Positions 38,936 through 52,122 are shown, counted from the first letter of the stretch. The stretch: DNA of 64,000 nt from Nitrospinales bacterium (GCA_965223795.1 CBDCXL010000002.1:2436030-2500029), one strand, 5' to 3'. Program-made: numbers and translations. The notes: a model not told the origin generated them from the sequence alone.

Positions 38936-39868
38936 ATGAAAACGCAAATAAAATCGGCGTATCTTGCAAGCGAGGGGTTTGAGGCGGCGCTGGTCCAGGA
39001 GCTTTCCGGCGGGGTGACGGTGCACGGGCGGCTGGTGCTCTCGGACCGCGCGGCGCAGCCGGTCTGCTGGGCGCAGAATGTGTGGCTGAATCCGGAAACG
39101 ATCGCCATCGACTCGATCTCCGACGCGGCGAAAAAGCTGAAGGCGCGGCAGCGCAACTGGTGCCTGTATTCGTATCAACTGCACCGGCGCGCGGCGCTGA
39201 TCGAAGAAAAACTGCCGCACGTTTCGGGAAAGGCGCTGCATTTTCCCGCGCCGCTGCCCGCCTCGCCGCTCGGGTCCTGGACGCTGCTGGACGCGGACAC
39301 GCTGCTGGCGGCGGGCGAGTGCTCCAGCCTGTTTCCCAACGGCGCGCTGCGTTTTGCCGAGGACAAGGATGGGCCGCCCAATCGGGCGTATCTAAAACTG
39401 TGGGAAGCGTGGACGCTGCTTCAGCGCCATCCGGAGCCGGGCGCTTTCTGCATCGACGCGGGCGCGAGCCCCGGCGGCTGGACCTGGGCCGCGGCGAAGC
39501 TGGGCGCGAACGTGCTGAGCGTGGACCGCGCGCCGCTGGATGCATCGCTATCCGGTCTCGACAACGTGACGTTTCGCAAGGGGGACGCGTTTGCGCTCAA
39601 GCCTGAGGATTTTTCCGGCCGGAACGTGGACTGGCTGTTGTGCGATGTGGTGTGCTACCCGGACAAGCTGTGGCAGTGGCTTGAGGCCTGGATCGCATCG
39701 GGGCTGTGCCGCAGCGTCGTGTGCACGATCAAGTTTCAGGGCGAAGGCGAATACGGGATCGTTGAGCGGTTTCAAAGTGTGCCGGGCAGCCGGGTGGTGC
39801 ATCTTTTTCACAACCGGCACGAACTGACGTTTCTGCTGCAGGAAGAGGGAATCACCCGTCCAGGGTGA
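38936..39868 (+). CDS. rlmM: RlmM-like 23S rRNA 2'-O-ribose (C2498) methyltransferase
   Basis: 310 aa. It reads PNRAYLKLWEAW, has the SAM motif CIDAGASPGGWT, then SVDRAPL and WLLCDVVCYPDK...VCTIKFQG, collinear with E. coli RlmM as I remember it. Confidence 0.78.
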   Translation: MKTQIKSAYLASEGFEAALVQELSGGVTVHGRLVLSDRAAQPVCWAQNVWLNPETIAIDSISDAAKKLKARQRNWCLYSYQLHRRAALIEEKLPHVSGKALHFPAPLPASPLGSWTLLDADTLLAAGECSSLFPNGALRFAEDKDGPPNRAYLKLWEAWTLLQRHPEPGAFCIDAGASPGGWTWAAAKLGANVLSVDRAPLDASLSGLDNVTFRKGDAFALKPEDFSGRNVDWLLCDVVCYPDKLWQWLEAWIASGLCRSVVCTIKFQGEGEYGIVERFQSVPGSRVVHLFHNRHELTFLLQEEGITRPG

Positions 39869-41126
39869 GGTCGGTCTTGGGCACGGAGATGCAGGTCAGG
39901 CAGGAGCGCGCTTCCGGCTTGCTGCCCGGTTCGACGACGTAGCTCACCAGGCCGCGCTTGATCGCGGTGAGGCAGGTGCCGCAGTTGCCGGCGCGGCAGC
40001 CGGACTCGAGCTGGATGCCGTTCTCCTCGGCGAAGGCGAGGATGGAGCCGGCGGCGGGGTTCCACTGCAGGGTTTTCTGGGAGCGGGCGAAGGTGACCTT
40101 GAGCGACGATTCGGTCGCGGGGTCGCCAGCTGTCAGTTTCTTGATGGTGACGGAGTTGAACGCTTCGTAGTGAATGTTTTTCTCGGACACCCCCCACTGC
40201 TCCAGATCCTGGCGCAGGGTCTCGATCATTTTCGGCGGCGCGCAGATGTAAAAGTCGAAATTGTTCGAGGGCAGCACCTCTTTCAACAGGCTGCCGGAAA
40301 TATGGCCTTCGTGATGGTAATCCTTCCCTTTCGCATCCTCGGCGCGCGGCCGGCTGTAACAGACGTTCAATTTTACATTGGGGTGGTTGCGGGCCACGTT
40401 TTCCAGGTGCTCTTTCATCATGTGCTCGGAACGGTTGCGCACTCCGAGAAAAAACCAGGTCTCTCTTTTGGACACGGCGCCGCGGGCGTCTTTTTCCGTG
40501 ATGGTGTTGAGCATGCTGAGCACCGGCGTGATGCCGACGCCGCCGCCGATGAGCACCACGGGACTGGTGCTGGCCATGTCGAGGTAGAAATGACCGCTGG
40601 GTGCCTTGACGTCGACGATGTCGCGTTCGTTGAGCATGTCGTGAAAGAAATTGGAGCCGAGCCCCGGCGGCGCGCTGTTGTTTTCGGGCGGCAGCAGGCG
40701 CTTGATGGTGACGCGGTAGTAATCCGGGTGGTTGGGGCTGTCCGACAGGGAATAGCAGCGGATCACCGGCTTCGGGTTGCCGGGAATGTTGAGTTTGAAG
40801 GTCAGGTACTGGCCGGGCTGAAACGGCGGCAGCGGTTTGCCGTCGTGCGGCGACAGGTAGAACGAGGAAACCTGATCGGTTTCCTTGACCTTGAGCACGA
40901 TCTGGAATTTGCGGAATCCGTTCCAGATCACGTTTTCGCTGCGCGAGTCCATGCGGATCCTGTCGACGATCTGGTCCACACGGGCGCGCAGCAGATCCGC
41001 TTCCAGTTCGCTGCTCCGCCGGGAAATTTTAAAGAAACGGAAATTGTTGCTGATCAGCTGGATGAGGTAGGCCATGAGGGCCAGAAGAAACGCGATAGCC
41101 GCAAGACTGATTGCAGCGTTGAGCAA
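39852..41126 (-). CDS. membrane-anchored FNR-like oxidoreductase (FAD-binding FR-type + NAD(P)-binding + C-terminal plant-type 2Fe-2S ferredoxin)
   Basis: 424 aa with an N-terminal helix (AISLAAIAFLLALMAYLI). It has RCYSLSD (RxYS FAD motif), LIGGGVGITPVLSML, and the C-terminal CRAGNCGTC...CLTC. It converges on rlmM with a 17-nt overlap. Confidence 0.9.
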   Translation of the reverse strand: MLNAAISLAAIAFLLALMAYLIQLISNNFRFFKISRRSSELEADLLRARVDQIVDRIRMDSRSENVIWNGFRKFQIVLKVKETDQVSSFYLSPHDGKPLPPFQPGQYLTFKLNIPGNPKPVIRCYSLSDSPNHPDYYRVTIKRLLPPENNSAPPGLGSNFFHDMLNERDIVDVKAPSGHFYLDMASTSPVVLIGGGVGITPVLSMLNTITEKDARGAVSKRETWFFLGVRNRSEHMMKEHLENVARNHPNVKLNVCYSRPRAEDAKGKDYHHEGHISGSLLKEVLPSNNFDFYICAPPKMIETLRQDLEQWGVSEKNIHYEAFNSVTIKKLTAGDPATESSLKVTFARSQKTLQWNPAAGSILAFAEENGIQLESGCRAGNCGTCLTAIKRGLVSYVVEPGSKPEARSCLTCISVPKTDLTLDG

Positions 41127-41205: not shown

Positions 41206-41733
41206 CTACGGGTCGTTGCGGGCCAGCAGCATTTCTTTTTTGAAGCCCGGTTTGTGGTGGTAAACGTGACACAGCTGACAGTCTTCTCTCACTTTTCCTT
41301 CCGAATGACATTCGAGGCAGGTTTTGCGTGTGATGGCGGAGAAGTTGCTTTTGAACACGGCCGGGTCGAACGAATCGAACGCGCCGAGGAAATCGGCCTT
41401 GGGATCGAGGACGTGGCAGTTCTTGCAGGTGTCGCCTTTGCCGAGCAGGTCGAGGTGGTTTTTATGGGAATATTTCAGGTAGGCGCGGTTGCGCGCGCCC
41501 TTGTAGCCCCAGTCGATGGTGAGCTGGCCGGGGTTTTCCGCGTCCGGTATGGCGGAAACCGCATGGCACTTGATGCAGCCGCCCACGCCTTCCTTTGAAG
41601 AGAGCATCAGGTCGCGCATCGCCTCGGCGCGTTCGCGCTTGTCGGGATCGGTCTCGGTGGCGGCGACGGTGAGCGCGAACTCGATCCAGCTTTGCGCCAC
41701 CGGGTCCTCATGGCCGGAGGGGGTGTAGCGCAC
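41206..41733 (-). CDS. multihaem cytochrome c, C-terminal part (4 CxxCH) of a frameshift-interrupted decahaem gene
   Basis: It contains CIKCH, CKNCH, CLECH and CQLCH. In this frame the reading frame stays open upstream to 41786 and reads SPAEASFGGWHADLLEVRYTPSG, joining the upstream ORF at the C5 run (plus-strand G-run 41776-41780). Confidence 0.85.
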   Translation of the reverse strand: MRYTPSGHEDPVAQSWIEFALTVAATETDPDKRERAEAMRDLMLSSKEGVGGCIKCHAVSAIPDAENPGQLTIDWGYKGARNRAYLKYSHKNHLDLLGKGDTCKNCHVLDPKADFLGAFDSFDPAVFKSNFSAITRKTCLECHSEGKVREDCQLCHVYHHKPGFKKEMLLARNDP

Positions 41734-43094
41734 TTCCAGAAGGTCCGCGTGCCAGCCGCCGAAACTGGCTTCCGCGGGGGATCGTATTCGACGTTGAGCC
41801 CCCAGGCGCAGGCCGCGCGTTTGAGTACTTCCGGGTTCAATCCCGCGAGCATTTTCTCGGCCACGGGTACGGGAGAATGCTCGTTGATCAGATCCGCGAT
41901 CGGCATCGTGCTTTCGACGGCGAGGTTGAGGATGAGGTCCTGCAGGCTTTCGCTGTAGCTTTCCGGATCGTCCTCGGGCACGTTCAAAAGATAGGCGCTG
42001 ATCAGGCTCGGCGATTCGGTGGAGATGCTGACGAATTCATCATCCTCTTCCTCAATCTTTTCGCCCCGGGTCCGCGGTAACCGGCAGGCTTCCTTCAGCT
42101 CTTCAACATCGATGCGGTTTCTGTCCAGTTCGGGCAGGCGCATGAGGACCAGCTCCTTGCGCGGAATCTGAAATTCGTGGCAGGAGGCGCAGACCCCTTC
42201 GAATTTGTCCGGGCTGACGATCTGCTCTTCCTGGGTCACTTTGTGGCAGACCATGCAGTCCTTGGGCGAGCGGTCTTCGAATTTGGGATCGACAAAGTAT
42301 TTATTCCAGTGCGAGATGTGGTCGAACTTGATCGTGTTCTTGCGGGTGTGCGGGTAGTTCTCCGGAAATTCCGGGTGCCCTTCGGTGAAGCTTTTGAACT
42401 GCTCTTCGTGACAGTGGTTGCACTGGGTGTTGTTGAAGGTGCGGATGGCCAGCCCGGGGCCGCGGTGCTCGCGGTGGCACATCAGGCAGTCGGTTTTCTG
42501 CAGCCGGGGAAACTGTCCGCGGTCGCCGTTGTGGGCGACGAGGGCCGGGCCGCCGAACAGGTGGCAGTCTTCGCATTTGGCGGAGATGTTGCCGGTGTGC
42601 AGCACCGATTTCAGCCACAGCACGGACTTGAGATTGTGGGTGGCGTGGCAGATTTCGCAGCCTTTGTTCTCGGCGAATTTGACGTGCGCGCTCGACATCG
42701 GGCCGGGATTGAAGCTCACGTGCCGGTGCTGCGCCTGGTCCACCACCCAGGAAAGGCAGAGCAAGGACACGATGGTGCCGAATGCGAGCAGGATCAGCCG
42801 GGCCCGGTAGACGCGCAGCGTGGCTTTGGGGACGCAGGGCGGGTGCCGCTGGGAGCACATCCCCTGGGGCAGCGGACCGTCGCCGCAGGGCCCGCCCGCC
42901 GCCTGGGGGCGGCTGCATTCCCAGTGGTTGCCTTTCAGCGTCGGCGCGCATTCGGCGGTGCCGCCGCAGGCGCCGTCGATGTCGGGGCCCTGATGGCAGG
43001 GTTTGAGCCAGAGCGCACCGCGGCCGCAGCGGTAGGGGAAATTCGGCCGTTCGTACTTGCTGCGGTTGTGCGCGAATTTTTTCTCATCCATCAT
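41607..43094 (-). CDS. multihaem cytochrome c, N-terminal part (6 CxxCH) with a Cys-rich cytoplasmic N-terminus and one TM helix; interrupted by a frameshift
   Basis: It contains CEICH, CEDCH, CLMCH, CNHCH, CMVCH and CASCH. The ATG at 43094 overlaps the upstream stop (ATGA). The last roughly 60 residues of the ORF (RKPVSAAGTRTFWKCATPPPAMRTRW...) look out of frame. Confidence 0.85.
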   Translation of the reverse strand: MMDEKKFAHNRSKYERPNFPYRCGRGALWLKPCHQGPDIDGACGGTAECAPTLKGNHWECSRPQAAGGPCGDGPLPQGMCSQRHPPCVPKATLRVYRARLILLAFGTIVSLLCLSWVVDQAQHRHVSFNPGPMSSAHVKFAENKGCEICHATHNLKSVLWLKSVLHTGNISAKCEDCHLFGGPALVAHNGDRGQFPRLQKTDCLMCHREHRGPGLAIRTFNNTQCNHCHEEQFKSFTEGHPEFPENYPHTRKNTIKFDHISHWNKYFVDPKFEDRSPKDCMVCHKVTQEEQIVSPDKFEGVCASCHEFQIPRKELVLMRLPELDRNRIDVEELKEACRLPRTRGEKIEEEDDEFVSISTESPSLISAYLLNVPEDDPESYSESLQDLILNLAVESTMPIADLINEHSPVPVAEKMLAGLNPEVLKRAACAWGLNVEYDPPRKPVSAAGTRTFWKCATPPPAMRTRWRKAGSSSRSPSPPPRPIPTSANAPRRCAT

Positions 43095-43894
43095 AACAGG
43101 TAGACGTGCACCACGACCATGTGCCACAGGATCACGGTCATGAGGGCGGTGGCCAGCGGAATGTGGATCATCAGCCAGCTTTTCAAAACCGTCTGCAGCG
43201 CGTAGTGCAGATCGATCTTGCGCTTAGTATCGGCCAGCGTGAACAGTTTTCTCAGGTAGCCGCGTTCCTGCACGTTGAGAAATTTTTCCAGGGTGGAAAA
43301 CTGCTGCCGCACCCAGAATTCGCCCTTGTGGCCGCCGAACAGGTAGCTGGTGAAAAACCGCGGCCGCTGGAAAAACCAGTGCAGCGATTCCAGGTAATGG
43401 GTCGCCAGGGTGTCGCGCCCGGTCTCGTGGGTGCAGGCGAGCAGTAGGTCCTTGGCCTTTTTACGCAGCTCGCTGATTTCCGCCGGGATGCGTTCGTAGA
43501 TGCACTCGAAGCCGCTCTGGGTCAGGCGGCTCGGGTAGATTTTCTGGATCAGGGTGCCGACGATGCCGGAGAGGGCGGAGGCGTAGAACAAGAACGCCAG
43601 GATCTGTTCGTACAATCCGTCGGGCCACAGCGTGCCGATGTGCAGCCAGAAAATGCCGATCGCCAGGAAGCCGCCCACGGTGTGGATGTTCAGCCAGTTC
43701 GAGGACGGCGAGAGCGGTAAAAACGGCAGCCGCTTGCGCAGATGAAACAGGGCCAGCACGATCAGGATGGAGAACAGGGTCCAGCCGGTGAGCGGCGAGG
43801 TGAACTCAAGCTGCTCATCCGCCTGGCTGGTGCGGTAGGTCATGAACACCAGAAATACGCTTGCGAAGATCCACAGGGCCCAGGATTTCACCAT
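43091..43894 (-). CDS. integral membrane protein with two His-x13-His helices (putative dihaem b-type electron-transfer subunit)
   Basis: ATG at 43894 (MVKSWALW...), AGGA upstream, 267 aa, about 5 TM helices. His71/His85 lie in NIHTVGGFLAIGIFWLHI and His244/His258 in MIHIPLATALMTVILWHM. Confidence 0.75.
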   Translation of the reverse strand: MVKSWALWIFASVFLVFMTYRTSQADEQLEFTSPLTGWTLFSILIVLALFHLRKRLPFLPLSPSSNWLNIHTVGGFLAIGIFWLHIGTLWPDGLYEQILAFLFYASALSGIVGTLIQKIYPSRLTQSGFECIYERIPAEISELRKKAKDLLLACTHETGRDTLATHYLESLHWFFQRPRFFTSYLFGGHKGEFWVRQQFSTLEKFLNVQERGYLRKLFTLADTKRKIDLHYALQTVLKSWLMIHIPLATALMTVILWHMVVVHVYLL

Positions 43895-43902
43895 CGAATG
43901 TC

Positions 43903-45618
43903 CTATCGGTCTATGCTTCCCTCGGGCCGCACGTGACGGAAATCGACCCGCTGCAGAGCTTCGTGAGAGCAGGCCTGCACGCAGGCGGGACCGGACAGTT
44001 GGCCGACGCAAAGATCGCACTTGGTCGCCTTGAGGATCGGCTTGCGCGTTTCGGCGTCGAGGATGGGTTTGCCTTTCTTGTCATTGATCTCCACCATGCG
44101 AATGTTCGAGTAGGGGCAGGAATTGGCGCAGGTCTCGCATCCGATGCAGGTGTCGTCGTTGATCACCACCGTCCCTTCGGAAAGGGTGCGGTGGATGGCT
44201 CCGGTGGGGCAGCCGATCAGGCAAACGGGATCGACACAATGCATGCAGGCGTTGGCCACCATCCAGCGGCCGAAGGTCTTGCCGTGCCGGATGAACCGGG
44301 GGTTGCCCTCATGCGCCGAGGCGCAGGCGTTGACGCAGTCGTCGCAGCGGACGCAGCGGTCCAGGTTGATCAGCATGGCCTGGGTGCCGTTGATGAACCG
44401 CTCCTGCACGGTCCATTCTACCAGAGCTTCGTCCGCCATGGTCTGTTTAAATAGATCGGTCATGCGCCTGTGGTTGCCGGTGGGCCTGTCGCTTGCGTGG
44501 CGGGTTCCGTGATGGATGGTCTCCCAATAGGGAAAGACGTATTTTTCCAGGATCTTCGCCGGGATCTGCAAAACATCTACGTAACCTAAAGCCGAGATCG
44601 ACACCTTGTAGGAGACATCCTTTTCCCCTTTCCAGGCGAGGTACAACTCATCGGCGCCGTAGAAATTGCCCATCCCCAGGTAGGTGAGGGTGTGGTCGCC
44701 GTCTTCCCGCTTGACCGAAACGCGGGCGAACCCGGCCCTGACCAGCAACAGGTCGTCGGGGTAATCGCCCTGCTTGGCGATCAGCGGCTCGTGCTGGATC
44801 CCCGCTTTGCCCATGTTGCGCAGGTTCTTGTAGGAAACCGTCCAGTCGTAGGTGCCGTAGGATTGGAAGCCGGTGTTCTGCGCCACATCGCGGAGCGCTT
44901 CTTCATCGAGATGCTCGAACAGCGAGATCTTGCGCAGAAAGGAAATGAGCGCGTTCTGGCTGTAGCGCTTTTCGATCATGCGGCGCCAGTTCTCGTCGTG
45001 TTTGCGCAGCTCGCGCAGTCCCTGCCAGCGGATTTCCAGCAGCTCGGAGTAGGTTTCGGAGAAGATCGTCGCGGTGCGCGGAATGCGCCCGAGCGCCGCC
45101 AGCTCGCCGAACAGATCGCCGGTTTCCAGGATCGCGGTCTTGTTGGCGTCGAGCACCGCGGGAATGTCCTGTAAAAACACGTGGCTTTGCGTCACGTCGC
45201 CGTTGGTGTGGATCGCCTGCTGGGTGTAGCGGGACGGGTCGCGCACTTCCGGGATCTTGCGGTTGGTGAACAGCTGCGACAGGGCTTCGAGCACGCTTTT
45301 GCGCGGCGTTTTCTTGCGGCCCAGAAGGTCGCTCGGCAGACCGGGAGACAGCACCACGCGCAGCCGGCCGTTGAGCGCGAGAAACGCGGAGTTGCCGTAG
45401 TCGCCCTCGCGGATCACGATGTCGCCGGGCTTGAATCGGACGATGCGGGTGTCGTTTTTGAGGATCCCCTCGAGCGGCGTGTCCGGCGGAAAGCGGTCCT
45501 TCTCGATCGCGGCGATCTCCGGAACCGCGAGCAGTTTCTGCACGTCGTATTCCGTCATTTCAGGACCGAAGGGGTTGTTCCACCGGTCCGGCTGTGAAAT
45601 TTGCGTGACGACTTCCAC
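43903..45618 (-). CDS. fusion protein: two cyclic-nucleotide-binding domains + four-cluster [4Fe-4S] ferredoxin (NrfC/DmsB/HybA-like)
   Basis: 571 aa with no signal peptide. The cNMP signature is GDLFGELAALGRIPRTATI, and there is a second beta-roll region. The Fe-S motifs are CVRCDDCVNAC, CMHCVDPVCLIGCP, CIGCETCANSCP and CDLCVGQLSGPACVQAC. Confidence 0.9.
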   Translation of the reverse strand: MEVVTQISQPDRWNNPFGPEMTEYDVQKLLAVPEIAAIEKDRFPPDTPLEGILKNDTRIVRFKPGDIVIREGDYGNSAFLALNGRLRVVLSPGLPSDLLGRKKTPRKSVLEALSQLFTNRKIPEVRDPSRYTQQAIHTNGDVTQSHVFLQDIPAVLDANKTAILETGDLFGELAALGRIPRTATIFSETYSELLEIRWQGLRELRKHDENWRRMIEKRYSQNALISFLRKISLFEHLDEEALRDVAQNTGFQSYGTYDWTVSYKNLRNMGKAGIQHEPLIAKQGDYPDDLLLVRAGFARVSVKREDGDHTLTYLGMGNFYGADELYLAWKGEKDVSYKVSISALGYVDVLQIPAKILEKYVFPYWETIHHGTRHASDRPTGNHRRMTDLFKQTMADEALVEWTVQERFINGTQAMLINLDRCVRCDDCVNACASAHEGNPRFIRHGKTFGRWMVANACMHCVDPVCLIGCPTGAIHRTLSEGTVVINDDTCIGCETCANSCPYSNIRMVEINDKKGKPILDAETRKPILKATKCDLCVGQLSGPACVQACSHEALQRVDFRHVRPEGSIDR

Positions 45619-45717: not shown

Positions 45718-46701
45718 TTATTTGTAGTCGTCCTTTTTCGGCAGCAGCTTGCCCACCGCTTTGGACAAATCCTTGCCCTTGATGGCGGCCACCAGCTTGC
45801 GGGCGTTCTGATCGGTCGGTTTGGCGATCAGGGCCTGGGCCTCGGGTATGCCTTTCAGATGCGCCAGGGCGGCCTTGGCGTCCGCCACGCGCTTCTGCTG
45901 GGCCTGCACGTATTTTTCGTTGTCCGAGCGGGTCAGCACCGAGTTGGCCGACACCAGCTTGGCGGCCTGGCCGATGACGAAAAACTCGGCCAGCTCCTGG
46001 GGCGTCATCTCGGCGTTCACCTTCACGTTCGGCTCGTAGTAGCGGTGGCGCACCGTGCCCTGCGAGTACTTGACGATCTCGAAGTCCGGATTGATGGGAT
46101 GATCGGCCTCCAGCATCTTCGCCAGAAGCTCGGGCTTGAGATCGGGATTGGCCAGCCCGTGGCAGAACATGCAGTTGGCGGCGACGTCGTATTTCATGGT
46201 CGGCCAGATGAGACCGGCTTCGGTGGATTTTTTGATGCGCATCGCCTTGTGCTCGGGCGTCTCCTGATCTTTCTCCACATCTTTGCCGCCGTAATTGTCG
46301 TGAATCTCCAGGTAATCGGAGGAGGGCCCGTGGCAGCTTTCGCAGGACGTCCCCGATTTGGCCTTGGGTTTGTCACCGGCATCCTTCTGCACCATGGTGT
46401 AATGGCACAGGGTGCAGGTTTCGTTCTTCTTCATGTTTTTCGACCCGCCCACCGCCTTGAGGATCTTTTTCGGGGAGGGTTTCTTTTTTTCCTTGTTGTC
46501 CTTGGGTTCCCGGTGCGCGTCGCGGAAGGATTCGAAGTGCCGGGTTCCCTTCCAGACTTTGTATTCGGCTTCATGACATTCCGTGCAGACCTTCACCCCT
46601 TTGAAAAAGGGTTTGGCCGAAGCCGAAGACGCAAACAGGCAAACCAGAACAGAAAATAGCGCGATGAAAGAAAGTCGTGATGGACTCTTGATTGATTTCA
46701 T
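45718..46701 (-). CDS. periplasmic tetrahaem cytochrome c
   Basis: 327 aa with signal peptide ...VLVCLFASSASA. It contains CTECH, CTLCH, CESCH and CMFCH. The first motif context, CTECHEAEYKVWKGTRHF, is typical of cytochrome c554/NrfB-like multihaem proteins. Confidence 0.9.
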   Translation of the reverse strand: MKSIKSPSRLSFIALFSVLVCLFASSASAKPFFKGVKVCTECHEAEYKVWKGTRHFESFRDAHREPKDNKEKKKPSPKKILKAVGGSKNMKKNETCTLCHYTMVQKDAGDKPKAKSGTSCESCHGPSSDYLEIHDNYGGKDVEKDQETPEHKAMRIKKSTEAGLIWPTMKYDVAANCMFCHGLANPDLKPELLAKMLEADHPINPDFEIVKYSQGTVRHRYYEPNVKVNAEMTPQELAEFFVIGQAAKLVSANSVLTRSDNEKYVQAQQKRVADAKAALAHLKGIPEAQALIAKPTDQNARKLVAAIKGKDLSKAVGKLLPKKDDYK

Positions 46702-46919
46702 GATTTCAAGCGATTGAATTGAGCGTTTTTGCGAGTTTTGGGATCAGGATCGTCGTTTGCGGGCGGCCGCCGGGATTCCCCTATGTGCTGCCCAAATAGC
46801 GTTTTCGGTCATTCCGTACTCAAAGTTCCTAAAAAACCGCTGAAATGACAAGTGATTTTTCCAGAAATATAAGCAATTTCAGATTCGTATTTGTACTAAT
46901 TTTGACCCCAGACACAAGA

Positions 46920-46934
46920 GCAGAAAAAGTGCCA
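46920..46934 (-). promoter_or_regulatory. sigma-54-type -24/-12 promoter candidate for the minus-strand cytochrome operon
   Basis: The minus strand reads TGGCAC-TTTTT-CTGCT, with GG and GC separated by 10 nt. It lies about 220 nt upstream of the ATG at 46701. Confidence 0.35.
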
Positions 46935-47923
46935 AAAAGTGGGATACCGGCGAAAAAATTTTATTCGTGGTAAATCAATCGTTTTTAAAAGCGAGTTAAA
47001 ATAATTATAGAAAATTTGTTTAAAATCGAATAAATAAGTATCAAACGTTGTCAATGAATACAATGGATAAATGCTCCCATCACAAAGGCGTAAAGCGATT
47101 CCAGCCGAGCCTTTGACCTTTTTAAAACCCGGAAAGTGAAACAAAACCGATGCCAGCATTCTGAGATCCGTCCTGTGTGTGGACGAGCATACGACGGTGT
47201 TGGCTGGGTCGACAGTCACTGTATGAAATTAAAGACAATCCGGAAATGAATTGCTGAATTTGTGCCACGAAGGATGAAGTCCGCTTCGATTCCCTCGGTT
47301 TTCTTGCCGGCAGCAAAGAAAACACAGTTTGTTCTTTAAATTTCAATGGGTGACCCTATTCTAGCATCCTTTTTCCGTGAAACCTATCCCGCTGGTTGTG
47401 TTTTAGGTCACAGTCCGTTATTGCATTGATTCATTTCGATGCCAGCCGGGCTGCGTTCATAAATTTACATCTATGGTTAATTTATATGGGGGTTTGCAAT
47501 ATTGTGCGTTGATTCGGGGATGAAACTCTATATAAACCAATTATTTGATTTGTAGTTATCGAAAATTTGGGTAAATGAGTATAAATTCGTTATCATCGTT
47601 AAAAATGGGATAATTATCACAAAATTAACGGTGGGAATGGTTCCTGGATTGAGCTAGAATCAGAAAAGTTGATAAATAAAAATAAATTGCTACCTTCAGT
47701 GTAATTTTTCATGGCCTTCAAGTTGATGAATTCTAACTTCAACCTGATGGCTGTGGGGGAAATCTATGTTTTTCGTTCGTGAAGTGTGCGGCTATCCGGA
47801 CAGAAAAAATATTGCTAAGATTTTTAGATTTCTGGTTAAAAAAATATAAATATATTGAAGGTTTGGTTGCCAAGAATTGATGGAAAGGTTTGATAAGCCA
47901 CGACTTTAAATTTCAATTGATTC

Positions 47924-47938
47924 TGGCCTGTGTTTTGC
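47924..47938 (+). promoter_or_regulatory. sigma-54-type -24/-12 promoter candidate for the plus-strand cytochrome/porin pair
   Basis: TGGCCT-GTGTT-TTGCT, with GG (47925-47926) and GC (47937-47938) separated by 10 nt. It lies about 115 nt upstream of the ATG at 48055. Confidence 0.3.
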
Positions 47939-48054
47939 TTTGTTTTCATTATGGATACCGGAAACAAGGTAACGGCGGGGACGGGCGTTTCGCCGGTTTT
48001 GCCTTAAGGTCATAAAACAGAATCAAAGGGATGTTTTTTTGGGGAGAAAGAAAC

Positions 48055-50070
48055 ATGACCGGACAGAACAATACGATGCATTGCAGGTCTTTCATTTTTC
48101 GTGTGGCCAGCGCCGTGTGCCTGGCAGCGTTCGCCAGTGTCGCGCTGATTTCCTGTCAGACTCCGCTGATGGAAGCGGATAAGGACAAAATGGCGAACGC
48201 CGCGCTTGCCGATGGCGAAAAGAAGATGGATGGCGGGAAAATGATGGCGGACAAGATGTCCGACGGTGAAAAAATGGCCGAAGGGTCCGCAGACTCCGGA
48301 AAAATGATGGCGAAAAAGGTGATGGCGGACAAGAAAATGATGAAAGGCGAGGGCGATGCCTGGGAGGACAAGAAGGACGGCGGGAAAAAAGCCGAAACGC
48401 TTGAGGATGCGTTCGCGCAGCATGAAGCGCTGTTCGCGGAAAACCGCTATCCTTCCGCGGCCACCTGCCGGACCTGTCACCCGAAACACTATAAGGAATG
48501 GTCGGTGTCTCAGCATTCCTATGCTCAGATCAGTCCGGTCTACCTGTCTCTCAACAACAAGATCAATCAGTTGACCCAGGGCACCATGGGTGATTTCTGT
48601 CTGCGCTGTCACAGCCCGGTGGGCGCCAACCTGGGAGAATCTCCGTATCAGTCGAACCTCACCCGGCACCCGACCTCGCGCGAGGGCATCACCTGCGTGG
48701 TGTGTCACCGGCTGAACTTGGCCTACAACAAGGTCAGCGGCCGGCTGGCGCTGGAAGAGGGCGACCTGCTCACTCCGGTGTTCGGACCGACGGGCAATAA
48801 AGAGCTTTCCCGCGTTCTCGACAACAAGGACAAATACCGGGTGGTCACCAAGAAGGAAGGCAAGGGCCGCAAGATCCACACCCAGGCCAAGCAGTTCGCC
48901 GGCATCACCACGCCGACGTTCTGCGGTTCCTGTCACGACGTGACGCTGTTCAACGGTTTCCGGCTGGAGGAGGCGTTCAGTGAATACCGGCTGTCTCCCG
49001 CGGCCAAGAAGGGCGTGACCTGTCAGGACTGCCACATGGGCAAGATCCAGGGCATCCCCTCCGGTTACGAGCACGGGCCCGCGGCGGTCGTGGGCGGCAA
49101 GAAAACCAAGCCGCGCAAGATCACCAGCCACTTTTTCGCCGGTCCCGACTACTCCGTCGTGCATCCGGGCATTTTCCCGCACAATTCCGACGCCCAGGAA
49201 ATGGCGACGCTGGAAGAGTGGATCCAGTTCGACTGGAAGGCGGGCTGGGGCACCGATGATTTCGAGGACAACGTTTCCGAGGATCACAAATTCCCCGATC
49301 GCTGGCGTTCGGCGACGGACCGTTACGACGCCAGGGAGATCATCGAGTATCAGCTCAAGCGGCTGGAGCTCATCAAGGAAAAACGGATGGAAGTCCTGCG
49401 CAACGGGTTTCATCTCGGCAGCATCATGACCGAGAAAGCCGATAAGGACGGCATCCGCTTCAAAGTTCAGGTGAAAAACGCCACCGACGGCCACAACGTT
49501 CCCACCGGGTTCACCGGCGAACGGCTTGTGTGGCTGCACGTGATGGTGAAAGACAGCGACGGCACCGTGATCTTCCAGTCCGGCGACCTCGATCCCAACG
49601 GCGATCTGCGGGACCAGGAATCCTCCTACGTGCACAACGGCGAGGCCCCGCTGGATCACCAGCTGTTCAATCTGCAATCGCGATTTGTCGTCGATAACCT
49701 CAGGGGCGGCGAGCGCGAGCGCGTCATTCCCATTCCTTACCCCCAGACCGCGATCCCGTTTGTGCGGCCTTCCATTCAGTCTCTCATCCTGAGTGGCGAG
49801 CCGACTACGGAGCGCAACCACCGGAAAGGCATCGAGCCTTTGGGGCATCGCTGGGCCGAGTACAAGATCGACAAGGAAGCTCTCACCGGCAAGGGCCCCT
49901 ACATGGCTCACATCGAGCTCAAAATGGCTATGGTTCCCGCCAACCTGGTGGAAGCGATCCAGGATGTGGGATTTGATTTTCACATGACCCCCAGAGAAGT
50001 GGGCGACGCGGTGGCCGCAGGTCATGCGGTGCTCTGGGAAAGAGAAGTCGAGATCAGCGTGATCGAATAG
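48055..50070 (+). CDS. lipoprotein pentahaem cytochrome c with Met/Lys-rich linker
   Basis: The ATG at 48055 follows GGGGAGAAAG. The signal ends in the lipobox VALISC. It contains CRTCH, CLRCH, CVVCH, CGSCH and CQDCH. The C-terminal roughly 250 aa carry no haem motif (ATDGHNVPTGFTGERLVWLHV...). Confidence 0.9.
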   Translation: MTGQNNTMHCRSFIFRVASAVCLAAFASVALISCQTPLMEADKDKMANAALADGEKKMDGGKMMADKMSDGEKMAEGSADSGKMMAKKVMADKKMMKGEGDAWEDKKDGGKKAETLEDAFAQHEALFAENRYPSAATCRTCHPKHYKEWSVSQHSYAQISPVYLSLNNKINQLTQGTMGDFCLRCHSPVGANLGESPYQSNLTRHPTSREGITCVVCHRLNLAYNKVSGRLALEEGDLLTPVFGPTGNKELSRVLDNKDKYRVVTKKEGKGRKIHTQAKQFAGITTPTFCGSCHDVTLFNGFRLEEAFSEYRLSPAAKKGVTCQDCHMGKIQGIPSGYEHGPAAVVGGKKTKPRKITSHFFAGPDYSVVHPGIFPHNSDAQEMATLEEWIQFDWKAGWGTDDFEDNVSEDHKFPDRWRSATDRYDAREIIEYQLKRLELIKEKRMEVLRNGFHLGSIMTEKADKDGIRFKVQVKNATDGHNVPTGFTGERLVWLHVMVKDSDGTVIFQSGDLDPNGDLRDQESSYVHNGEAPLDHQLFNLQSRFVVDNLRGGERERVIPIPYPQTAIPFVRPSIQSLILSGEPTTERNHRKGIEPLGHRWAEYKIDKEALTGKGPYMAHIELKMAMVPANLVEAIQDVGFDFHMTPREVGDAVAAGHAVLWEREVEISVIE

Positions 50071-50133
50071 ATTCCTTTAAGCAAATCAAGGGTCTATCAC
50101 TCACAAACGTCAACGTACTGGGGGACGCAACGC

Positions 50134-51567
50134 ATGAGGTACGCCAAGCTGGAACGGGAATTTCTCTCAAAAACGGTTGCGGCGGCGATCCTGTGGCTCA
50201 TGATCGCCGCTCCGCAGGCGGCCCAGGCGGATAGCTGGTTCTCCGCGATCGGTGAAAAATCCGAGGTCAGCCGGCTTTCGGACGAGCAGATTCCGTTCGC
50301 CGGCGTGGAAGGCCTGCCGCCGCGGCCGGGACTGATCTGGGAGTTCGGCGACAATTTCCTCGACTCGGGGAACCTGTACTCCGGCTTCGAGCTGCCCACC
50401 GGAGCGGTGTGGCAGCCGCGCCTCTGGCTGTTCGCCACGCTGCGCAGCGCGGTGCAGACCTTTGACGACGGCGTCAACGACCGCAGCTCGGAATGGGTCA
50501 ACCGGCTGGATCTGTTCGCCAATCTGCAGCTCACCGGCACGGAAAAGCTGGTGTTCGGCATCCGTCCGTTCGACCGCAACCGTCCCGACCGGTTCTCCGG
50601 CTACCAGTTCGAACCCGACAACGACGACGGTTTTCAGGAAGATCTCAACGCGGACATCCGCACCTTCTTTTTCGAGGGCGATCTGGGAAGCCTGTTTCCC
50701 AATCTGGACCGGCACGGGTTCACGGCGCTCGACTACGGCTTTTCGGTGGGGCGCCAGCCGCTGCTGTTTCAGGAAGGCATCCTGATCAACGACACGGTGG
50801 ACGCGCTCGGGCTGGTGCGCAACAACATCCGCCTGCCGGGGGTGTCCAACCTCCGGGTGTCGTTCGTCTGGGGCTGGAACGAGTTGGGGCGCAGCGACGC
50901 GGTTCTGAGGGACACCACGCAGATGTTCGGGCTGTTCAACTCGGCGGACCTGAACGTCAGCACCGTCAACCTCGACATGGCCTATGTGCGCGACACCAAC
51001 CCCAACGGGCAGGACAGCTTCAACATCGGCCTCTCCTCGACCCAGCGCATCGGCCATTTGAACACCACATTCCGCGTCAACAGCTCGATCGCCGAGGACG
51101 GCGACACGCTGGCCGCTGCGGACGGGACGCTTATATCCGCGGAACTCTCCTGGACTCCCGAATCGTCCGACGACATCGTGTACCTGAACACATTTTATAC
51201 CATTGAGAACTACACCCAGGTGGGAAGGGAACCGGTCGTCGGTGGACCGCTGGGAACGCTGGGCATTCTGTTCGCCTCGCCCAGCATCGGCAACTTCCTC
51301 GCCGAACTCAATCCCTTTGCCAATGAAGTTGCCGGCGGCGCGCTCGGCTACCAGGCTTTCTGGGACAACCACAAGCGCAACCTGATTCTGGAAATCGCCG
51401 GACGCCAGGACACGAGCGGTGACAACAACTCTGATTTCGCTGTCGGTTTTCAGGTGCAGCAGCAGATCCATCAGCGCATTCAGCTGCAGCTCGACGGCCA
51501 CTACGCCATTCAGGAAGGCCGCGACAACGGCTACGGCGGACGCACGGAAATCCTGATCCAGTTCTGA
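50134..51567 (+). CDS. outer-membrane beta-barrel protein (porin-like)
   Basis: 477 aa with signal peptide ...LWLMIAAPQAAQA. It has many short amphipathic strands rich in G, Y, F, N and D, and the C-terminal signature GGRTEILIQF ends in Phe. Confidence 0.8.
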   Translation: MRYAKLEREFLSKTVAAAILWLMIAAPQAAQADSWFSAIGEKSEVSRLSDEQIPFAGVEGLPPRPGLIWEFGDNFLDSGNLYSGFELPTGAVWQPRLWLFATLRSAVQTFDDGVNDRSSEWVNRLDLFANLQLTGTEKLVFGIRPFDRNRPDRFSGYQFEPDNDDGFQEDLNADIRTFFFEGDLGSLFPNLDRHGFTALDYGFSVGRQPLLFQEGILINDTVDALGLVRNNIRLPGVSNLRVSFVWGWNELGRSDAVLRDTTQMFGLFNSADLNVSTVNLDMAYVRDTNPNGQDSFNIGLSSTQRIGHLNTTFRVNSSIAEDGDTLAAADGTLISAELSWTPESSDDIVYLNTFYTIENYTQVGREPVVGGPLGTLGILFASPSIGNFLAELNPFANEVAGGALGYQAFWDNHKRNLILEIAGRQDTSGDNNSDFAVGFQVQQQIHQRIQLQLDGHYAIQEGRDNGYGGRTEILIQF

Positions 51568-51876: not shown

Positions 51877-52122
51877 TCAACCCTCAACAAAAATCCGGGA
51901 ACGGTCCGACAACTTGAAACCCAACGCCAAAAGAATTTTTCGTTTGGTGTCCAAGCGGCAGTCGTATCCCTTTTCAATCCGATCGATCGTCTGAACGGTG
52001 ACTCCGGCTTTGCGCGCAAGCTCAGCTTTGCTCATCATCCTTGCTTCGCGTGTCTGCCGGACCTTGTTTTCCTTCTTGTCGTCCGAATCGACCCCTACTG
52101 CATTTTTAGAAAGCGTAGCCAT
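51877..52122 (-). CDS. XRE-family (Cro/C1-type HTH) transcriptional regulator
   Basis: 81 aa. MSKAELARKAGVTVQTIDRIEKG is the canonical HTH_3 motif. GGAG lies upstream of the ATG. Confidence 0.8.
   Translation of the reverse strand: MATLSKNAVGVDSDDKKENKVRQTREARMMSKAELARKAGVTVQTIDRIEKGYDCRLDTKRKILLALGFKLSDRSRIFVEG

What the first reader, a model, noticed from the sequence alone, without database searches (positions are those of the whole stretch)
48055..51567. Lipoprotein pentahaem cytochrome followed by a 477-aa outer-membrane beta-barrel: a porin-cytochrome-like pair
The cytochrome has a lipobox signal (VALISC), five CxxCH motifs and a roughly 250-aa haem-free C-terminal domain. After a 63-nt gap comes a signal-peptide protein with beta-barrel character and a C-terminal ...EILIQF.

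Cytochrome-plus-barrel pairs are the hallmark of outer-membrane electron conduits (MtrAB, PioAB/MtoAB, Geobacter Pcc). This pair has a different size and haem count from the ones I know.

It lies divergent to a second, larger electron-transfer operon. That placement suggests a coordinated path from cytoplasm to cell surface.
Basis: partly seen in the sequence, partly recalled or inferred. Interest (0 to 1): 0.75.

Follow-up and report, generated by a model that had tools for sequence, protein, structure and literature searches.

The report
ptdAB: pentahaem cytochrome plus small porin
This gene pair is real and always inherited together. It is the ptdAB end of a seven-gene electron-transfer system already named in marine bacteria in 2024, whose function is still unknown. 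It looks more like a periplasmic haem enzyme docked under a small substrate pore than like a Shewanella-type electron wire through the outer membrane.

Summary
Window 48055-50070 encodes a 671-aa lipoprotein with five CxxCH motifs. After a 63-nt gap, 50134-51567 encodes a 477-aa outer-membrane beta-barrel.

In 78 of 78 related genome loci the cytochrome gene lies directly upstream of the barrel gene on the same strand. One organism carries them as a single in-frame fusion. Five further families, which are the divergent operon here, co-occur with them across Nitrospinota, Alphaproteobacteria, Flavobacteriales and Omnitrophota.

This is the ptdABCDEFG cluster named by a 2024 bioRxiv preprint, with function unknown and Nitrospina already listed. 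It is therefore a new member of a known kind.

What I add:
- The barrel is predicted to have about 18 strands (Occ/OprD/AlgE-like), against 26 in MtrB.
- PtdA is homologous to the Thermochromatium penta-haem c552 (PDB 5ZE8). It shares the architecture of the Geobacter polysulfide reductase MccSep/ExtKL but lacks its catalytic Cys and Sec.
- Proteobacterial PtdA has no lipobox.
- The supply chain reads NAD(P)H, FAD/2Fe-2S, 4x[4Fe-4S], di-haem b, then 10, 4 and 5 c-haems.

Best reading, at 0.45: an NAD(P)H-fed periplasmic terminal reductase docked at a dedicated pore. The substrate is unknown.

The parts
48055..50070 (+). ptdA: lipoprotein pentahaem cytochrome c. It has a signal peptide with lipobox Cys34, an approximately 85-aa Met/Lys-rich linker, a 5-haem domain at about 120-330 and a haem-free C-terminal part with an Ig-like beta-sandwich.
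   Evidence: Searches give the CxxCH positions. One search gives Pfam Cytochrome_C554. Searches show homology to PDB 5ZE8 and architecture shared with MccSep. Searches show 60-89% identity across phyla. One search covers the lipobox and linker.
50134..51567 (+). ptdB: outer-membrane beta-barrel of about 18 strands. It has a conserved periplasmic N-terminal extension, a conserved long loop at 361-398 and a C-terminal ...IQF.
   Evidence: One search gives the AF2 model (pLDDT 82.5). One search gives Foldseek matches to 18-strand Occ/OprD, MOMP and AlgE. Searches find no Pfam or NCBIfam family. Searches show it always lies downstream of ptdA. Searches show the natural A-B fusion.
45718..46701 (-). 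ptdD: periplasmic tetrahaem c554-like cytochrome (327 aa).
   Evidence: 4 CxxCH; co-occurs in 58 loci.
43903..45618 (-). ptdE: cytoplasmic protein with cNMP-binding-like domains and four Cx2Cx2-8Cx3C motifs (16 Cys).
   Evidence: cNMP_binding; DmsB/NrfC-type Fer4; motifs.
43091..43894 (-). ptdF: polytopic membrane protein with two invariant His pairs (i, i+14) on two helices. Inferred to be a di-haem b transmembrane electron carrier.
   Evidence: invariant His. (family members weakly hit DUF4405, Ni_hydr_CYTB and Ferric_reduct).
41206..43127 (-). ptdG: decahaem cytochrome with an N-terminal cytoplasmic 8-Cys domain and one TM helix. In this window a 1-nt frameshift in a C5 run (41767-41783) splits it into two ORFs, 41607-43127 and 41206-41733.
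   Evidence: Orthologues are single 630-660-aa ORFs with 10 CxxCH.
39852..41126 (-). ptdC: N-terminally membrane-anchored FNR-type FAD/NAD(P)H reductase with a C-terminal plant-type 2Fe-2S domain.
   Evidence: FAD_binding_6, NAD_binding_1, NAD_binding_6, Fer2. (Hmp reductase-domain hit, E 4e-75). (Cys pattern).
46702..48054 (.). 1.35-kb AT-rich divergent intergenic region. It carries two sigma-54-like -24/-12 elements, 46919-46934 (-) facing ptdD and 47924-47939 (+) facing ptdA.
   Evidence: (GC 0.446), (blocks conserved in L001 and L002).

Best explanation
The pair is ptdAB, the terminal module of the seven-gene ptdABCDEFG system.

PtdA is a periplasmic pentahaem protein of the 5ZE8/MccSep architecture, with an alpha-helical five-haem cap and an Ig-like stem. 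In Nitrospinota it is tethered by a lipid anchor and a long flexible linker. It sits at the periplasmic face of PtdB, a dedicated pore of about 18 strands.

Electrons come from cytoplasmic NAD(P)H and bypass the quinone pool. The route is PtdC (FAD, 2Fe-2S), PtdE (four 4Fe-4S), PtdF (two b haems across the inner membrane), PtdG (10 c haems, membrane-anchored), PtdD (4 haems) and PtdA (5 haems). PtdA then reduces a small dissolved substrate that reaches it through, or inside, the PtdB pore.

Shown here:
- gene content, cofactor motifs and topology signals;
- obligate A-B adjacency and one natural fusion;
- barrel fold class;
- homology of PtdA to 5ZE8.

Inferred:
- direction of electron flow;
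- physical docking of PtdA on PtdB;
- a catalytic rather than purely relay role for PtdA.

Unknown: the substrate. Candidates are chelated Fe(III) or other metals, iodate, sulfur or nitrogen oxyanions, and O2.
For: Identity of the cluster:
- All seven families are present.
- They match the published description of ptdA-G, which lists a Nitrospina MAG.

A-B as a unit:
- 78 of 78 loci have A directly upstream of B, while C and the DEFG block move around.
- Only these seven families are conserved among all ORFs of 80 loci.
- P0245 is an in-frame PtdA-PtdB fusion on two assemblies. GC3 is at least 0.92 across the junction. The barrel part starts at the conserved SRLSDE motif and has no signal peptide of its own. 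This places PtdA at the periplasmic N-terminus of the barrel.

Barrel:
- AF2 pLDDT is 82.5. The best PDB matches are all 18-strand Occ/OprD, MOMP or AlgE (E 5e-11 to 1e-8).
- The periplasmic N-terminal extension, the periplasmic turn 184-200 and the long loop 361-398 are the most conserved parts. The other outer loops vary.

PtdA:
- The profile hits 5ZE8 at E 4e-11, and Foldseek gives 5ZE8 as the only significant match.
- Identity is 60-70% between phyla, with about 170 invariant columns.
- The most conserved non-haem blocks, 295-312 and 477-490, align to the two active-site elements of MccSep: the C239 loop and the GHSIPDG-U325 loop.
- Proteobacterial orthologues carry plain signal peptides.

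Supply chain:
- FNR-type reductase with positive-inside anchor and 2Fe-2S.
- 16 Cys in four ferredoxin motifs and no export signal.
- Four invariant His at i/i+14 in PtdF, with weak DUF4405, cytochrome b561 and Ferric_reduct hits.

Precedent:
- The Geobacter ext cluster (porin ExtI, 5-haem ExtKL, 12-, 10- and 4-haem cytochromes, cytochrome b, Fe-S protein) was counted among putative outer-membrane electron-conduit clusters (PMC6148476, title and abstract only).
- ExtKL/MccSep is now shown to be a periplasmic polysulfide reductase, and ExtI is implicated in selenite entry.
Against: - No experiment bears on Ptd.
- The PtdA model is poor (pLDDT 49.6). The active-site mapping therefore rests on weak HMMER sub-alignments (domain E 1.4 to 600), anchored only by flanking CxxCH and GHxxPxG motifs.
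- No open-coordination haem has been demonstrated. Nine invariant non-motif His could make all five haems bis-His, which would fit a pure relay.
- A static chain of 19 c-haems reaching the outer membrane is more than a soluble substrate would seem to need, and it fits extracellular electron transfer.
- Many carriers come from Fe/Mn-oxide-rich habitats.
- Strand number is a prediction. DSSP gives 19 segments, so 20 strands are not excluded.
- FNR-type enzymes are reversible in principle.
- The window's ptdG carries a frameshift, so this copy may not be functional.
Confidence: 0.45

Rival explanations
1. A genuine trans-outer-membrane electron conduit, as the first reader and the 2024 paper suggest. 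PtdA, or a loop or haem of it, plugs into PtdB and passes electrons to insoluble or colloidal Fe(III)/Mn(IV) outside the cell. This would serve respiration, redox balancing or metal acquisition.
For: - Cytochrome-plus-barrel adjacency is obligate, and one fusion exists. This is the Cyc2-like arrangement.
- 19 c-haems could bridge the periplasm.
- Carriers are frequent in subsea-tunnel Fe/Mn biofilms, crust, sediment and oxygen-deficient-zone MAGs.
- ptdAB is highly transcribed in an oxygen-deficient zone.
Against: - The barrel has about 18 strands and a conserved in-folding loop, against 26 strands needed to sheath MtrA.
- PtdA is globular and 5ZE8-like, not MtrA-like. The TIGR03508 score is 31 against a cut-off of 192.
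- No second, surface-exposed cytochrome is conserved in the cluster.
- PtdA is a soluble periplasmic protein in Proteobacteria.
- The homologous-architecture ExtKL proved to be a periplasmic enzyme.
Confidence: 0.2
2. The chain runs inwards. PtdA oxidises a low-potential periplasmic donor such as sulfite, sulfide or polysulfide, or Fe(II), that enters through PtdB. The electrons reach PtdC and reduce NAD(P)+ for autotrophy without classical reverse electron transport.
For: - FNR-type reductases are reversible (established knowledge).
- PtdA's relatives act on sulfur compounds: MccA weakly, and MccSep.
- 5ZE8 is a low-potential cytochrome of a sulfur oxidiser, according to the title cited.
- Several hosts are autotrophs or transcribe sox genes.
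Against: - Moving electrons inwards works against the membrane potential, and only very low-potential donors could reduce NAD(P)+ (inference from bioenergetics).
- Many carriers are heterotrophic Alphaproteobacteria and Flavobacteriales.
- The reductase has the domain order of NAD(P)H-oxidising electron donors such as PaaE, Hcr, BenC and the Hmp reductase.
- No energy-coupling subunit is conserved in the cluster.
Confidence: 0.12
3. PtdB is a secretion or assembly barrel of the autotransporter or two-partner type. It places PtdA on the cell surface and is not a channel or conduit.
For: - The fusion P0245 has passenger-then-barrel order, like type V secretion.
- PtdA is a lipoprotein in Nitrospinota.
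- AlgE, one of the fold matches, is an exporter.
Against: - A haem-loaded, folded 60-kDa cytochrome is unlikely to pass an 18-strand barrel (inference).
- No POTRA or known type V domains were found by Pfam.
- A surface PtdA would be cut off from PtdD and PtdG, because no membrane-spanning haem chain exists.
- The closest characterised relative, MccSep, is periplasmic.
Confidence: 0.07
4. There is no specific partnership. PtdB is a general diffusion porin that merely sits next to an electron-shuttle cytochrome.
For: The fold resembles ordinary substrate porins.
Against: - 78 of 78 adjacency across phyla while other genes rearrange.
- An in-frame fusion exists.
- The barrel family was found only next to ptdA in the 80 loci examined.
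- The periplasmic face is conserved.
Confidence: 0.02

Closest known systems
ptdABCDEFG cluster (bioRxiv 10.1101/2023.11.21.568154, marine Alphaproteobacteria UBA11136 and others)
   Same: The same seven families are present: pentahaem with C-terminal beta-sandwich, porin, FAD/NAD(P) oxidoreductase, tetrahaem, cNMP-domain Fe-S protein, membrane cytochrome-b-like protein and decahaem. The paper's table already lists a Nitrospina MAG.
   Different: - The gene order here is divergent (cgfed<>AB) rather than ABCDEFG or ABDEFGC.
- ptdG is frameshifted.
- I count four Fe-S motifs in PtdE where the paper says two clusters.
- The paper gives no barrel size, no link to MccSep and no fusion.
Penta-haem low-potential cytochrome c552 of Thermochromatium tepidum (PDB 5ZE8)
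   Same: It is the closest solved structure, at E 4e-11 by profile. Foldseek gives it as the only significant hit. It has five CxxCH plus an Ig-like domain, and shares the WxxSxH, HPxxxEG and HxxPTG motifs.
   Different: - It is 435 aa against about 555 aa for the PtdA core, with about 18% identity.
- Its function is unknown.
- The one relative whose context I could read (L083) has no adjacent barrel.
MccSep / ExtKL with porin ExtI (Geobacter sulfurreducens extHIJKLMNOPQS)
   Same: - Same protein architecture: five-haem cap plus Ig-like stem carrying a GHxxPxG loop at the haem-2 pocket.
- Same cluster logic: a porin-like protein, a 5-haem protein, 10-haem and 4-haem cytochromes, a membrane cytochrome b and an Fe-S protein.
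- Periplasmic enzyme, with the porin implicated in substrate entry.
   Different: - PtdA has Leu304/Glu305 where MccSep has the haem ligand Cys239, and Phe486 where it has Sec325.
- NF040886 scores 33 against a cut-off of 250.
- Ext draws on a Rieske/cytochrome b module, whereas Ptd draws on an NAD(P)H reductase.
- Homology between ExtI and PtdB was not tested.
MtrAB / PioAB / MtoAB porin-cytochrome conduits
   Same: An adjacent cytochrome gene and outer-membrane barrel gene, with multihaem relays in the same locus.
   Different: - MtrB has 26 strands and sheathes a linear decahaem MtrA. PtdB has about 18 strands.
- PtdA has five haems and is globular.
- There is no Pfam MtrB_PioB hit.
- The DmsE-family score is far below its cut-off.
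Cyc2 fused cytochrome-porin of iron oxidisers
   Same: A small barrel with the cytochrome at its N-terminal, periplasmic end, thought to act only on dissolved ions inside the pore. A rare PtdA-PtdB fusion has the same order.
   Different: Cyc2 has one haem, is normally fused and oxidises Fe(II). PtdA has five haems plus an Ig-like domain and is normally a separate protein. No sequence relationship was detected.
NOX / FRE / MsrQ-type transmembrane electron export (ferric-reductase domain superfamily)
   Same: NAD(P)H, then flavin, then two b haems on paired His (i, i+13/14) across the membrane to an outside acceptor. PtdC hits NAD_binding_6, and some PtdF members hit Ferric_reduct or DUF4405.
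   Different: The parts are split into separate proteins, with 2Fe-2S and four 4Fe-4S clusters inserted and 19 c-haems added downstream. PtdF matches to these families are weak and below the curated cut-offs.

Membership tests
ptdABCDEFG | Pentahaem protein with C-terminal beta-sandwich (PtdA) | tested here: met
   Five CxxCH. Beta-sandwich at 452-667 in the AF2 model and the Ig-like domain of 5ZE8.
ptdABCDEFG | Adjacent porin (PtdB) | tested here: met
ptdABCDEFG | FAD/NAD(P) oxidoreductase, tetrahaem, cNMP-domain 4Fe-4S protein, ferric-reductase-like membrane protein and decahaem in the same locus | tested here: met
   The decahaem is interrupted by a frameshift here. PtdF matches Ferric_reduct only weakly, in 3 of 33 members.
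ptdABCDEFG | Sequence orthology to the published Ptd proteins | tested here: inconclusive
   No direct alignment to the paper's accessions was possible. Indirect support: JGI names, the same architecture, and Nitrospina Saanich Inlet MAGs in both sets.
MtrAB/PioAB/MtoAB | MtrB/PioB-family barrel of about 26 strands | tested here: not met
   No Pfam hit. About 18 strands, with Occ/AlgE-like fold matches. MtrB has 26 strands.
MtrAB/PioAB/MtoAB | MtrA/DmsE-family decahaem inserted in the barrel | tested here: not met
   PtdA has 5 haems. TIGR03508 scores 31.2 bits against a cut-off of 192.2.
Geobacter Pcc (OmaB-OmbB-OmcB) | Periplasmic octahaem, porin and surface dodecahaem lipoprotein trio | tested here: not met
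   Only one cytochrome is adjacent to the barrel. No surface multihaem family is conserved.
MccSep/ExtKL | Five CxxCH plus Ig-like stem | tested here: met
MccSep/ExtKL | Haem-2 distal ligand Cys239 | tested here: not met
   It aligns to Leu304/Glu305. PtdA has no Cys outside the CxxCH motifs. The alignment is weak.
MccSep/ExtKL | Sec/Cys325 after GHxxPxG | tested here: not met
   PtdA has an invariant Phe486 at this position.
MccSep/ExtKL | NCBIfam NF040886 above its cut-off | tested here: not met
   33.4 bits against a cut-off of 250.
NrfA cytochrome c nitrite reductase | CxxCK (or equivalent) catalytic haem and Pfam Cytochrom_C552 above its cut-off | tested here: not met
   No CxxCK. PF02335 scores 16.4 against 24.1, over 23 residues only.
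Occ/OprD or AlgE porin families | Sequence membership (Pfam OprD / Alginate_exp) | tested here: not met
   No hit for any of 57 family members at E up to 1. Fold similarity only, at 9-12% identity.
Cyc2 | Single polypeptide with a monohaem cytochrome fused to a porin | tested here: not met
   Separate genes here, with five haems. A fused variant exists elsewhere.
Bacterial lipoprotein | Lipobox with invariant Cys at the signal-peptide end | tested here: met
   The window has ALIS-C34-Q. The lipobox is shared by Nitrospinota orthologues and absent from proteobacterial ones. Acylation is not testable here.

The most novel reading that the evidence does not exclude
Ptd is a quinone-independent, NAD(P)H-driven electron export line. 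In effect it is a split NOX/FRE-type reductase extended by 19 c-haems to the outer membrane. It ends in a catalytic pentahaem docked under a small dedicated pore.

This would let aerobic marine bacteria, including the main oceanic nitrite oxidisers, deliver very low-potential electrons to a dissolved extracellular species. Examples are strongly chelated Fe(III) or Cu(II) for uptake, iodate, or O2 to make extracellular superoxide.

This would be a new functional class of porin-cytochrome system. It could also be a candidate for the unidentified enzymes behind bacterial extracellular superoxide production or reductive metal acquisition in the sea.
Probability: 0.3. Interest if true: 0.8.

Novelty: new member of a known kind. 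Interest (0 to 1): 0.5.

Why it matters
The system is found in 260 of about 185,000 species genomes, across at least four phyla. These include Nitrospinaceae, which carry out most oceanic nitrite oxidation. ptdAB is highly transcribed in an oxygen-deficient zone. Nobody knows what it does.

If it is an NAD(P)H-fed periplasmic or surface reductase, it bears on three questions:
- how marine aerobes handle metals or oxidants;
- how Nitrospina persists where oxygen is scarce;
- how often 'porin-cytochrome' gene pairs are really enzyme-plus-channel pairs, as the Geobacter Ext case now suggests.

The present analysis gives concrete handles. These are the residues to mutate (303-306, 480-490), a natural fusion suited to structural work, and culturable alphaproteobacterial relatives.

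Tried and rejected
- **AF2 of PtdA.** A 53-sequence alignment gave pLDDT 49.6. I used the model only for a Foldseek sanity check.
- **Domain searches.** Pfam on the PtdA C-terminal domain, the PtdG N-terminal domain and the PtdB N-terminal extension found nothing.
- **PtdF versus PDB.** A PDB profile search with PtdF found nothing meaningful.
- **Intergenic region.** The Fur-box consensus had no match at up to 3 mismatches. Rfam had no hit. No sigma-70 consensus was found.
- **Extra conserved genes.** All further clusters in the 80 loci were antisense artefacts or Nitrospina-only synteny.
- **AB-only loci.** Their neighbours are unrelated housekeeping genes.
- **Second apparent fusion.** P0260 was rejected as an out-of-frame read-through, because its barrel part keeps its own signal peptide.
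- **50%-cluster search with the PtdA profile.** The best 150 were all close relatives or fragments. It did not bridge to the 5ZE8 or MccSep families, but it revealed the fusion.
- **5ZE8 fragment search.** It returned only nine short proteins, and the one readable context had no barrel.
- **Sigma-54 element as a general feature of ptdA.** Rejected; it occurs only in the three closest genomes plus one other.

Full report
**1. The observation**

ORF 48055-50070 (+) encodes 671 aa. Exactly this protein, with this start, is in the public collection on a 3,250,952-bp contig.
- It has a signal peptide ending in the lipobox ALIS-C34.
- CxxCH motifs lie at residues 138, 182, 214, 290 and 323, and there is no other mature Cys.
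- 344 haem-free residues follow the last motif.

Sixty-three nucleotides downstream, ORF 50134-51567 (+) encodes 477 aa with a signal peptide and a C-terminal ...EILIQF. Its closest relatives carry Nitrospina/Nitrospinaceae names, so the window comes from a Nitrospinales genome.

**2. Co-conservation**

A scan of 185,579 species genomes with the barrel profile found 260 relatives, and I examined the best 80 loci. By record title they are:
- 25 Nitrospinota;
- 42 Alphaproteobacteria (Hyphomicrobiales, Methyloligellaceae, Anderseniella, Kiloniellaceae, Geminicoccaceae and others);
- 6 unclassified Proteobacteria;
- 2 Flavobacteriales, 1 Methylococcaceae and 1 Omnitrophota;
- 3 unclassified.

Every locus with upstream DNA has a PtdA homologue directly before the barrel. 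That is 78 of 78 on the same strand, with a median gap of 42 nt.

I clustered all ORFs of the 80 loci. Exactly seven families are conserved: barrel 81 loci (the window's own region was included in this clustering), pentahaem 78, FNR-like 64, tetrahaem 58, decahaem 57, membrane protein 56 and cNMP/Fe-S protein 50. The next real family drops to 11 loci. Everything in between is antisense junk.

Gene order varies: ABCgfed in 14 loci, ABDEFGC in 11, ABCDEFG in 7, and gfedAB as in the window. A-B and D-E-F-G stay intact.

**3. It already has a name**

A full-text search led to bioRxiv 10.1101/2023.11.21.568154. That paper describes 'ptdABCDEFG' as follows:
- PtdA, pentahaem with C-terminal beta-sandwich;
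- PtdB, porin;
- PtdC, FAD/NAD(P) oxidoreductase;
- PtdD, tetrahaem;
- PtdE, cNMP-domain protein with 4Fe-4S clusters;
- PtdF, ferric-reductase-like membrane protein;
- PtdG, decahaem.

The paper reports that ptdAB are highly transcribed in an oxygen-deficient zone. It proposes a porin-cytochrome complex and says the function 'remains completely unknown'. Its supplementary table lists a Nitrospina MAG.

PMC11995701 notes multihaem clusters in the OFTM Nitrospinaceae MAGs, which are among my loci, with the role unclear. No other paper uses the ptd name.

**4. The barrel**

No Pfam or NCBIfam family matches it, nor any of 57 relatives at E up to 1. No PDB sequence matches either.

AF2 gives a confident barrel (pLDDT 82.5, pTM 0.77) with 19 DSSP strand segments. 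Two short segments, 138-143 and 155-158, are best read as one interrupted strand. That gives 18 strands with both termini in the periplasm, though 20 cannot be excluded.

The top 50 Foldseek matches in the PDB are almost all 18-strand barrels. They include Occ/OprD channels, Campylobacter MOMP and AlgE (E 5e-11 to 2e-8, TM 0.5-0.68 on the target, 9-12% identity). MtrB has 26 strands and encloses MtrA (PMC7198977).

Mapping conservation on the predicted topology shows a clear pattern:
- The most conserved parts are the periplasmic N-terminal extension (about 61-100), the periplasmic turn 184-200 and one long loop 361-398 (extracellular by the topology count), which I suspect folds into the lumen (not checked in the model).
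- The other outer loops are variable.

This pattern suits a specific channel with a periplasmic docking face. It is an inference, because I had no access to model coordinates.

**5. The cytochrome**

PtdA is 60-70% identical between Nitrospinota and Alphaproteobacteria, with about 170 invariant columns. This is much more conserved than PtdB (about 50%) or the relay proteins (about 30%).

A profile search of the PDB gives one clear homologue, the penta-haem low-potential cytochrome c552 of Thermochromatium tepidum (5ZE8, E 4e-11). The match covers haems 1-3 and, separately, the Ig-like domain with the H-x-x-P-T-G motif. MccA and MccSep match weakly. The AF2 model of PtdA is poor (pLDDT 49.6), yet Foldseek also returns 5ZE8 as its only significant match.

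MccSep is ExtKL of Geobacter sulfurreducens.
- It has the same 'five-haem cap plus Ig-like stem' build and is periplasmic.
- It is a polysulfide reductase whose active site is haem 2. That haem is ligated by Cys239 and approached by Sec325 from the loop GHSIPDG-U of the Ig-like domain.

In the HMMER alignment, Cys239/Cys240 fall on Leu304/Glu305 inside the invariant PtdA block HDVTLFNGFRLEEAFSEYR. Sec325 falls on the invariant Phe486 in GHNVPTGF. These two blocks are among the most conserved in PtdA.

PtdA is therefore not a MccSep. It has no Cys or Sec, and NF040886 scores 33 against 250. Even so, the pocket equivalent to MccSep's reaction centre is strictly conserved. This is the main reason I think PtdA is catalytic rather than a mere relay. 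The sub-alignments are weak, so this step is inference.

**6. Location of PtdA**

The lipobox is shared by Nitrospinota orthologues, which show motifs such as LISC, LVSC and FLYSC. Alphaproteobacterial and other proteobacterial orthologues have ordinary AxA-type signal peptides and no Cys. The lipid anchor is therefore a lineage feature, and the common denominator is a periplasmic protein.

In Nitrospinota the anchor is followed by a 60-90-residue linker rich in Met and Lys. The window's 88-residue linker has 12 Met and 17 Lys.

**7. A Rosetta-stone fusion**

The 50%-cluster search returned P0245, a 1098-aa protein.
- Residues 26-573 are PtdA, 57% identical to the window's.
- Residues 612-1098 are PtdB, 38% identical and aligned to residues 46-477.
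- The two parts are joined by a Pro/Ala-rich linker. The barrel part lacks its own signal peptide and ends in ...VQVLF.

The ORF is identical in two assemblies, and GC3 is at least 0.92 along its whole length. It is followed by PtdD-like and PtdG-like cytochromes but not by C, E or F.

This argues for a 1:1 physical complex with PtdA at the periplasmic N-terminus of the barrel, the same order as in Cyc2. A second apparent fusion, P0260, is an out-of-frame artefact.

**8. The supply chain**

| Protein | Features |
|---|---|
| PtdC | One N-terminal helix followed by basic residues; FNR-type FAD and NAD(P)H domains (Hmp reductase-domain hit, E 4e-75; also NAD_binding_6); plant-type 2Fe-2S domain |
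| PtdE | No export signal; cNMP-binding-like domains; exactly 16 Cys in four Cx2Cx2-8Cx3C motifs, as in DmsB/NrfC-type four-cluster proteins |
| PtdF | Four invariant His as two i/i+14 pairs on two helices; orthologues weakly hit DUF4405 (18 of 33), cytochrome b561 (10) and Ferric_reduct (3) |
| PtdG | In orthologues one 630-660-aa ORF with a cytoplasmic 8-Cys domain, one helix and ten CxxCH |
| PtdD | Signal peptide and four CxxCH |

PtdF is thus most simply read as a di-haem b wire across the inner membrane. No quinone-reactive module (NrfD, NapC or Rieske type) is conserved in the cluster.

The simplest reading is NAD(P)H to PtdC, PtdE, PtdF, PtdG, PtdD and PtdA. Outward electron flow is favoured by the membrane potential. 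Inward flow to NAD(P)+ would work against it.

**9. Precedent**

The Geobacter extHIJKLMNOPQS cluster has a porin-like ExtI, the 5-haem ExtKL, 12-, 10- and 4-haem cytochromes, a cytochrome b and a Rieske protein (PMC5877670). It was listed among putative outer-membrane conduits (PMC6148476, title and abstract only).

ExtKL is now known to be a periplasmic enzyme. ExtI is implicated in selenite/tellurite entry (reference list). Ptd has the same logic with a different electron source. I could not test whether PtdB and ExtI are homologous.

**10. Verdict**

The finding is real, and the idea of a coordinated path from cytoplasm to outer membrane is well supported. It is a further member of a cluster already described, although uncharacterised.

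The MtrAB-like reading is weakened by barrel size, by PtdA's fold family and by the soluble proteobacterial orthologues.

My best explanation, at 0.45, is an NAD(P)H-fed terminal reductase docked at a dedicated small pore and acting on a dissolved substrate. A true conduit to minerals stays possible (0.2). Inward electron uptake (0.12) and a surface-display role for PtdB (0.07) are less likely. The substrate cannot be named from sequence.

**11. Local features**

- The window's ptdG is split by a one-base loss in a C5 run. The reading changes at EYDPP|AEASFGGW, window 41767-41783. This is either an assembly error or a pseudogene.
- The 1.35-kb AT-rich divergent intergenic region has two sigma-54-like -24/-12 elements facing outwards, at 46919-46934 (-) and 47924-47939 (+). 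Both are conserved in the two closest genomes. This suggests joint control by an enhancer-binding protein in this lineage only.

Noticed in passing
window 41767-41783 (- strand), within ptdG 41206-43127: The decahaem gene is split into two overlapping ORFs (506 aa and 175 aa) by a 1-nt deficit in a C5 run. Orthologues read EYEPPAEAKFGGW straight through as one 630-660-aa ORF. This is either a homopolymer assembly error or a real pseudogene.
   Followed up: partly
window 46919-46934 (-) and 47924-47939 (+); also 52519-52534 (+): Sigma-54-like -24/-12 elements (TGGCAC-N5-CTGCT and TGGCC-N6-TTGCT) face ptdD and ptdA respectively. They are conserved in L001 and L002 but absent upstream of ptdA in most other loci. 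A third lies upstream of the LuxR-type regulator gene at 52787. The loose pattern occurs 8 times in the window against about 3 expected.
   Followed up: partly
window 46702-48054: An unusually long (1.35 kb), AT-rich (GC about 0.45 against about 0.60 in the flanks) divergent intergenic region. It has several blocks conserved in the two closest genomes. There is no Rfam hit, no sigma-70 consensus and no Fur box.
   Followed up: partly
window 48157-48420 (PtdA residues 35-122): A Met/Lys/Asp-rich low-complexity linker (12 Met and 17 Lys in 88 residues, with motifs such as GKMMA and KKMMK) lies between the lipid anchor and the haem domain. Similar Met-rich linkers occur in other Nitrospinota PtdA but not in proteobacterial ones. 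Met-rich tracts are typical of Cu(I) binding or oxidant scavenging. This was not tested.
   Followed up: partly
L081 6001-9297 and L082 1030-4326 (protein P0245): A natural in-frame PtdA-PtdB fusion (1098 aa), followed by a PtdD-like double-c554 cytochrome (746 aa) and a PtdG-like cytochrome (539 aa). No ptdC, ptdE or ptdF lies nearby, so the AB unit can be coupled to a different supply chain.
   Followed up: yes
window 42745-43127 (- strand; PtdG residues 1-127): A cytoplasmic N-terminal domain with eight regularly spaced Cys (34, 44, 54, 60, 71, 81, 91, 98) precedes the single TM helix of the decahaem. It is conserved in most orthologues and matches no Pfam family. It may be a metal or Fe-S site contacting PtdE.
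   Followed up: partly
window 43903-45618 (PtdE residues 422-550): All 16 Cys of PtdE fall in four ferredoxin-type motifs, which implies up to four [4Fe-4S] clusters. The published description speaks of two. Three cNMP-binding-like stretches precede them, which hints at nucleotide gating of electron flow.
   Followed up: partly
proteins P0116, P0100, P0046, P0032 (barrel homologues; e.g. L022, L007): Some PtdB orthologues are called with 120-280-residue N-terminal extensions made of low-complexity tandem repeats (for example SDSLLAEPPPAG...VQLAA...PEDxPE). I did not determine whether these are real periplasmic linkers or mis-called starts.
   Followed up: no
loci L012, L026, L031, L032, L047: Here ptdAB stands alone, with no other ptd gene within about 6-8 kb. 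The neighbours are unrelated (PEP mutase, amidohydrolase, radical SAM, methyltransferase, a CobW-type GTPase, hydantoinase).
   Followed up: yes
window 37914-38537 (-), 34291-36783 (+), 51877-52122 (-), 52787-53902 (+), 53965-56829 (+), 56882-57493 (+), 57565-58137 (+): Flanking genes not conserved with the cluster: an AhpC/TSA-type peroxiredoxin-like protein, glycogen phosphorylase, a small XRE-type HTH protein, a LuxR-type regulator, a 954-aa TPR protein, a small OMP beta-barrel protein, and a pentapeptide-repeat protein with an Arg/Lys/Ser-rich repeated N-terminus.
   Followed up: partly
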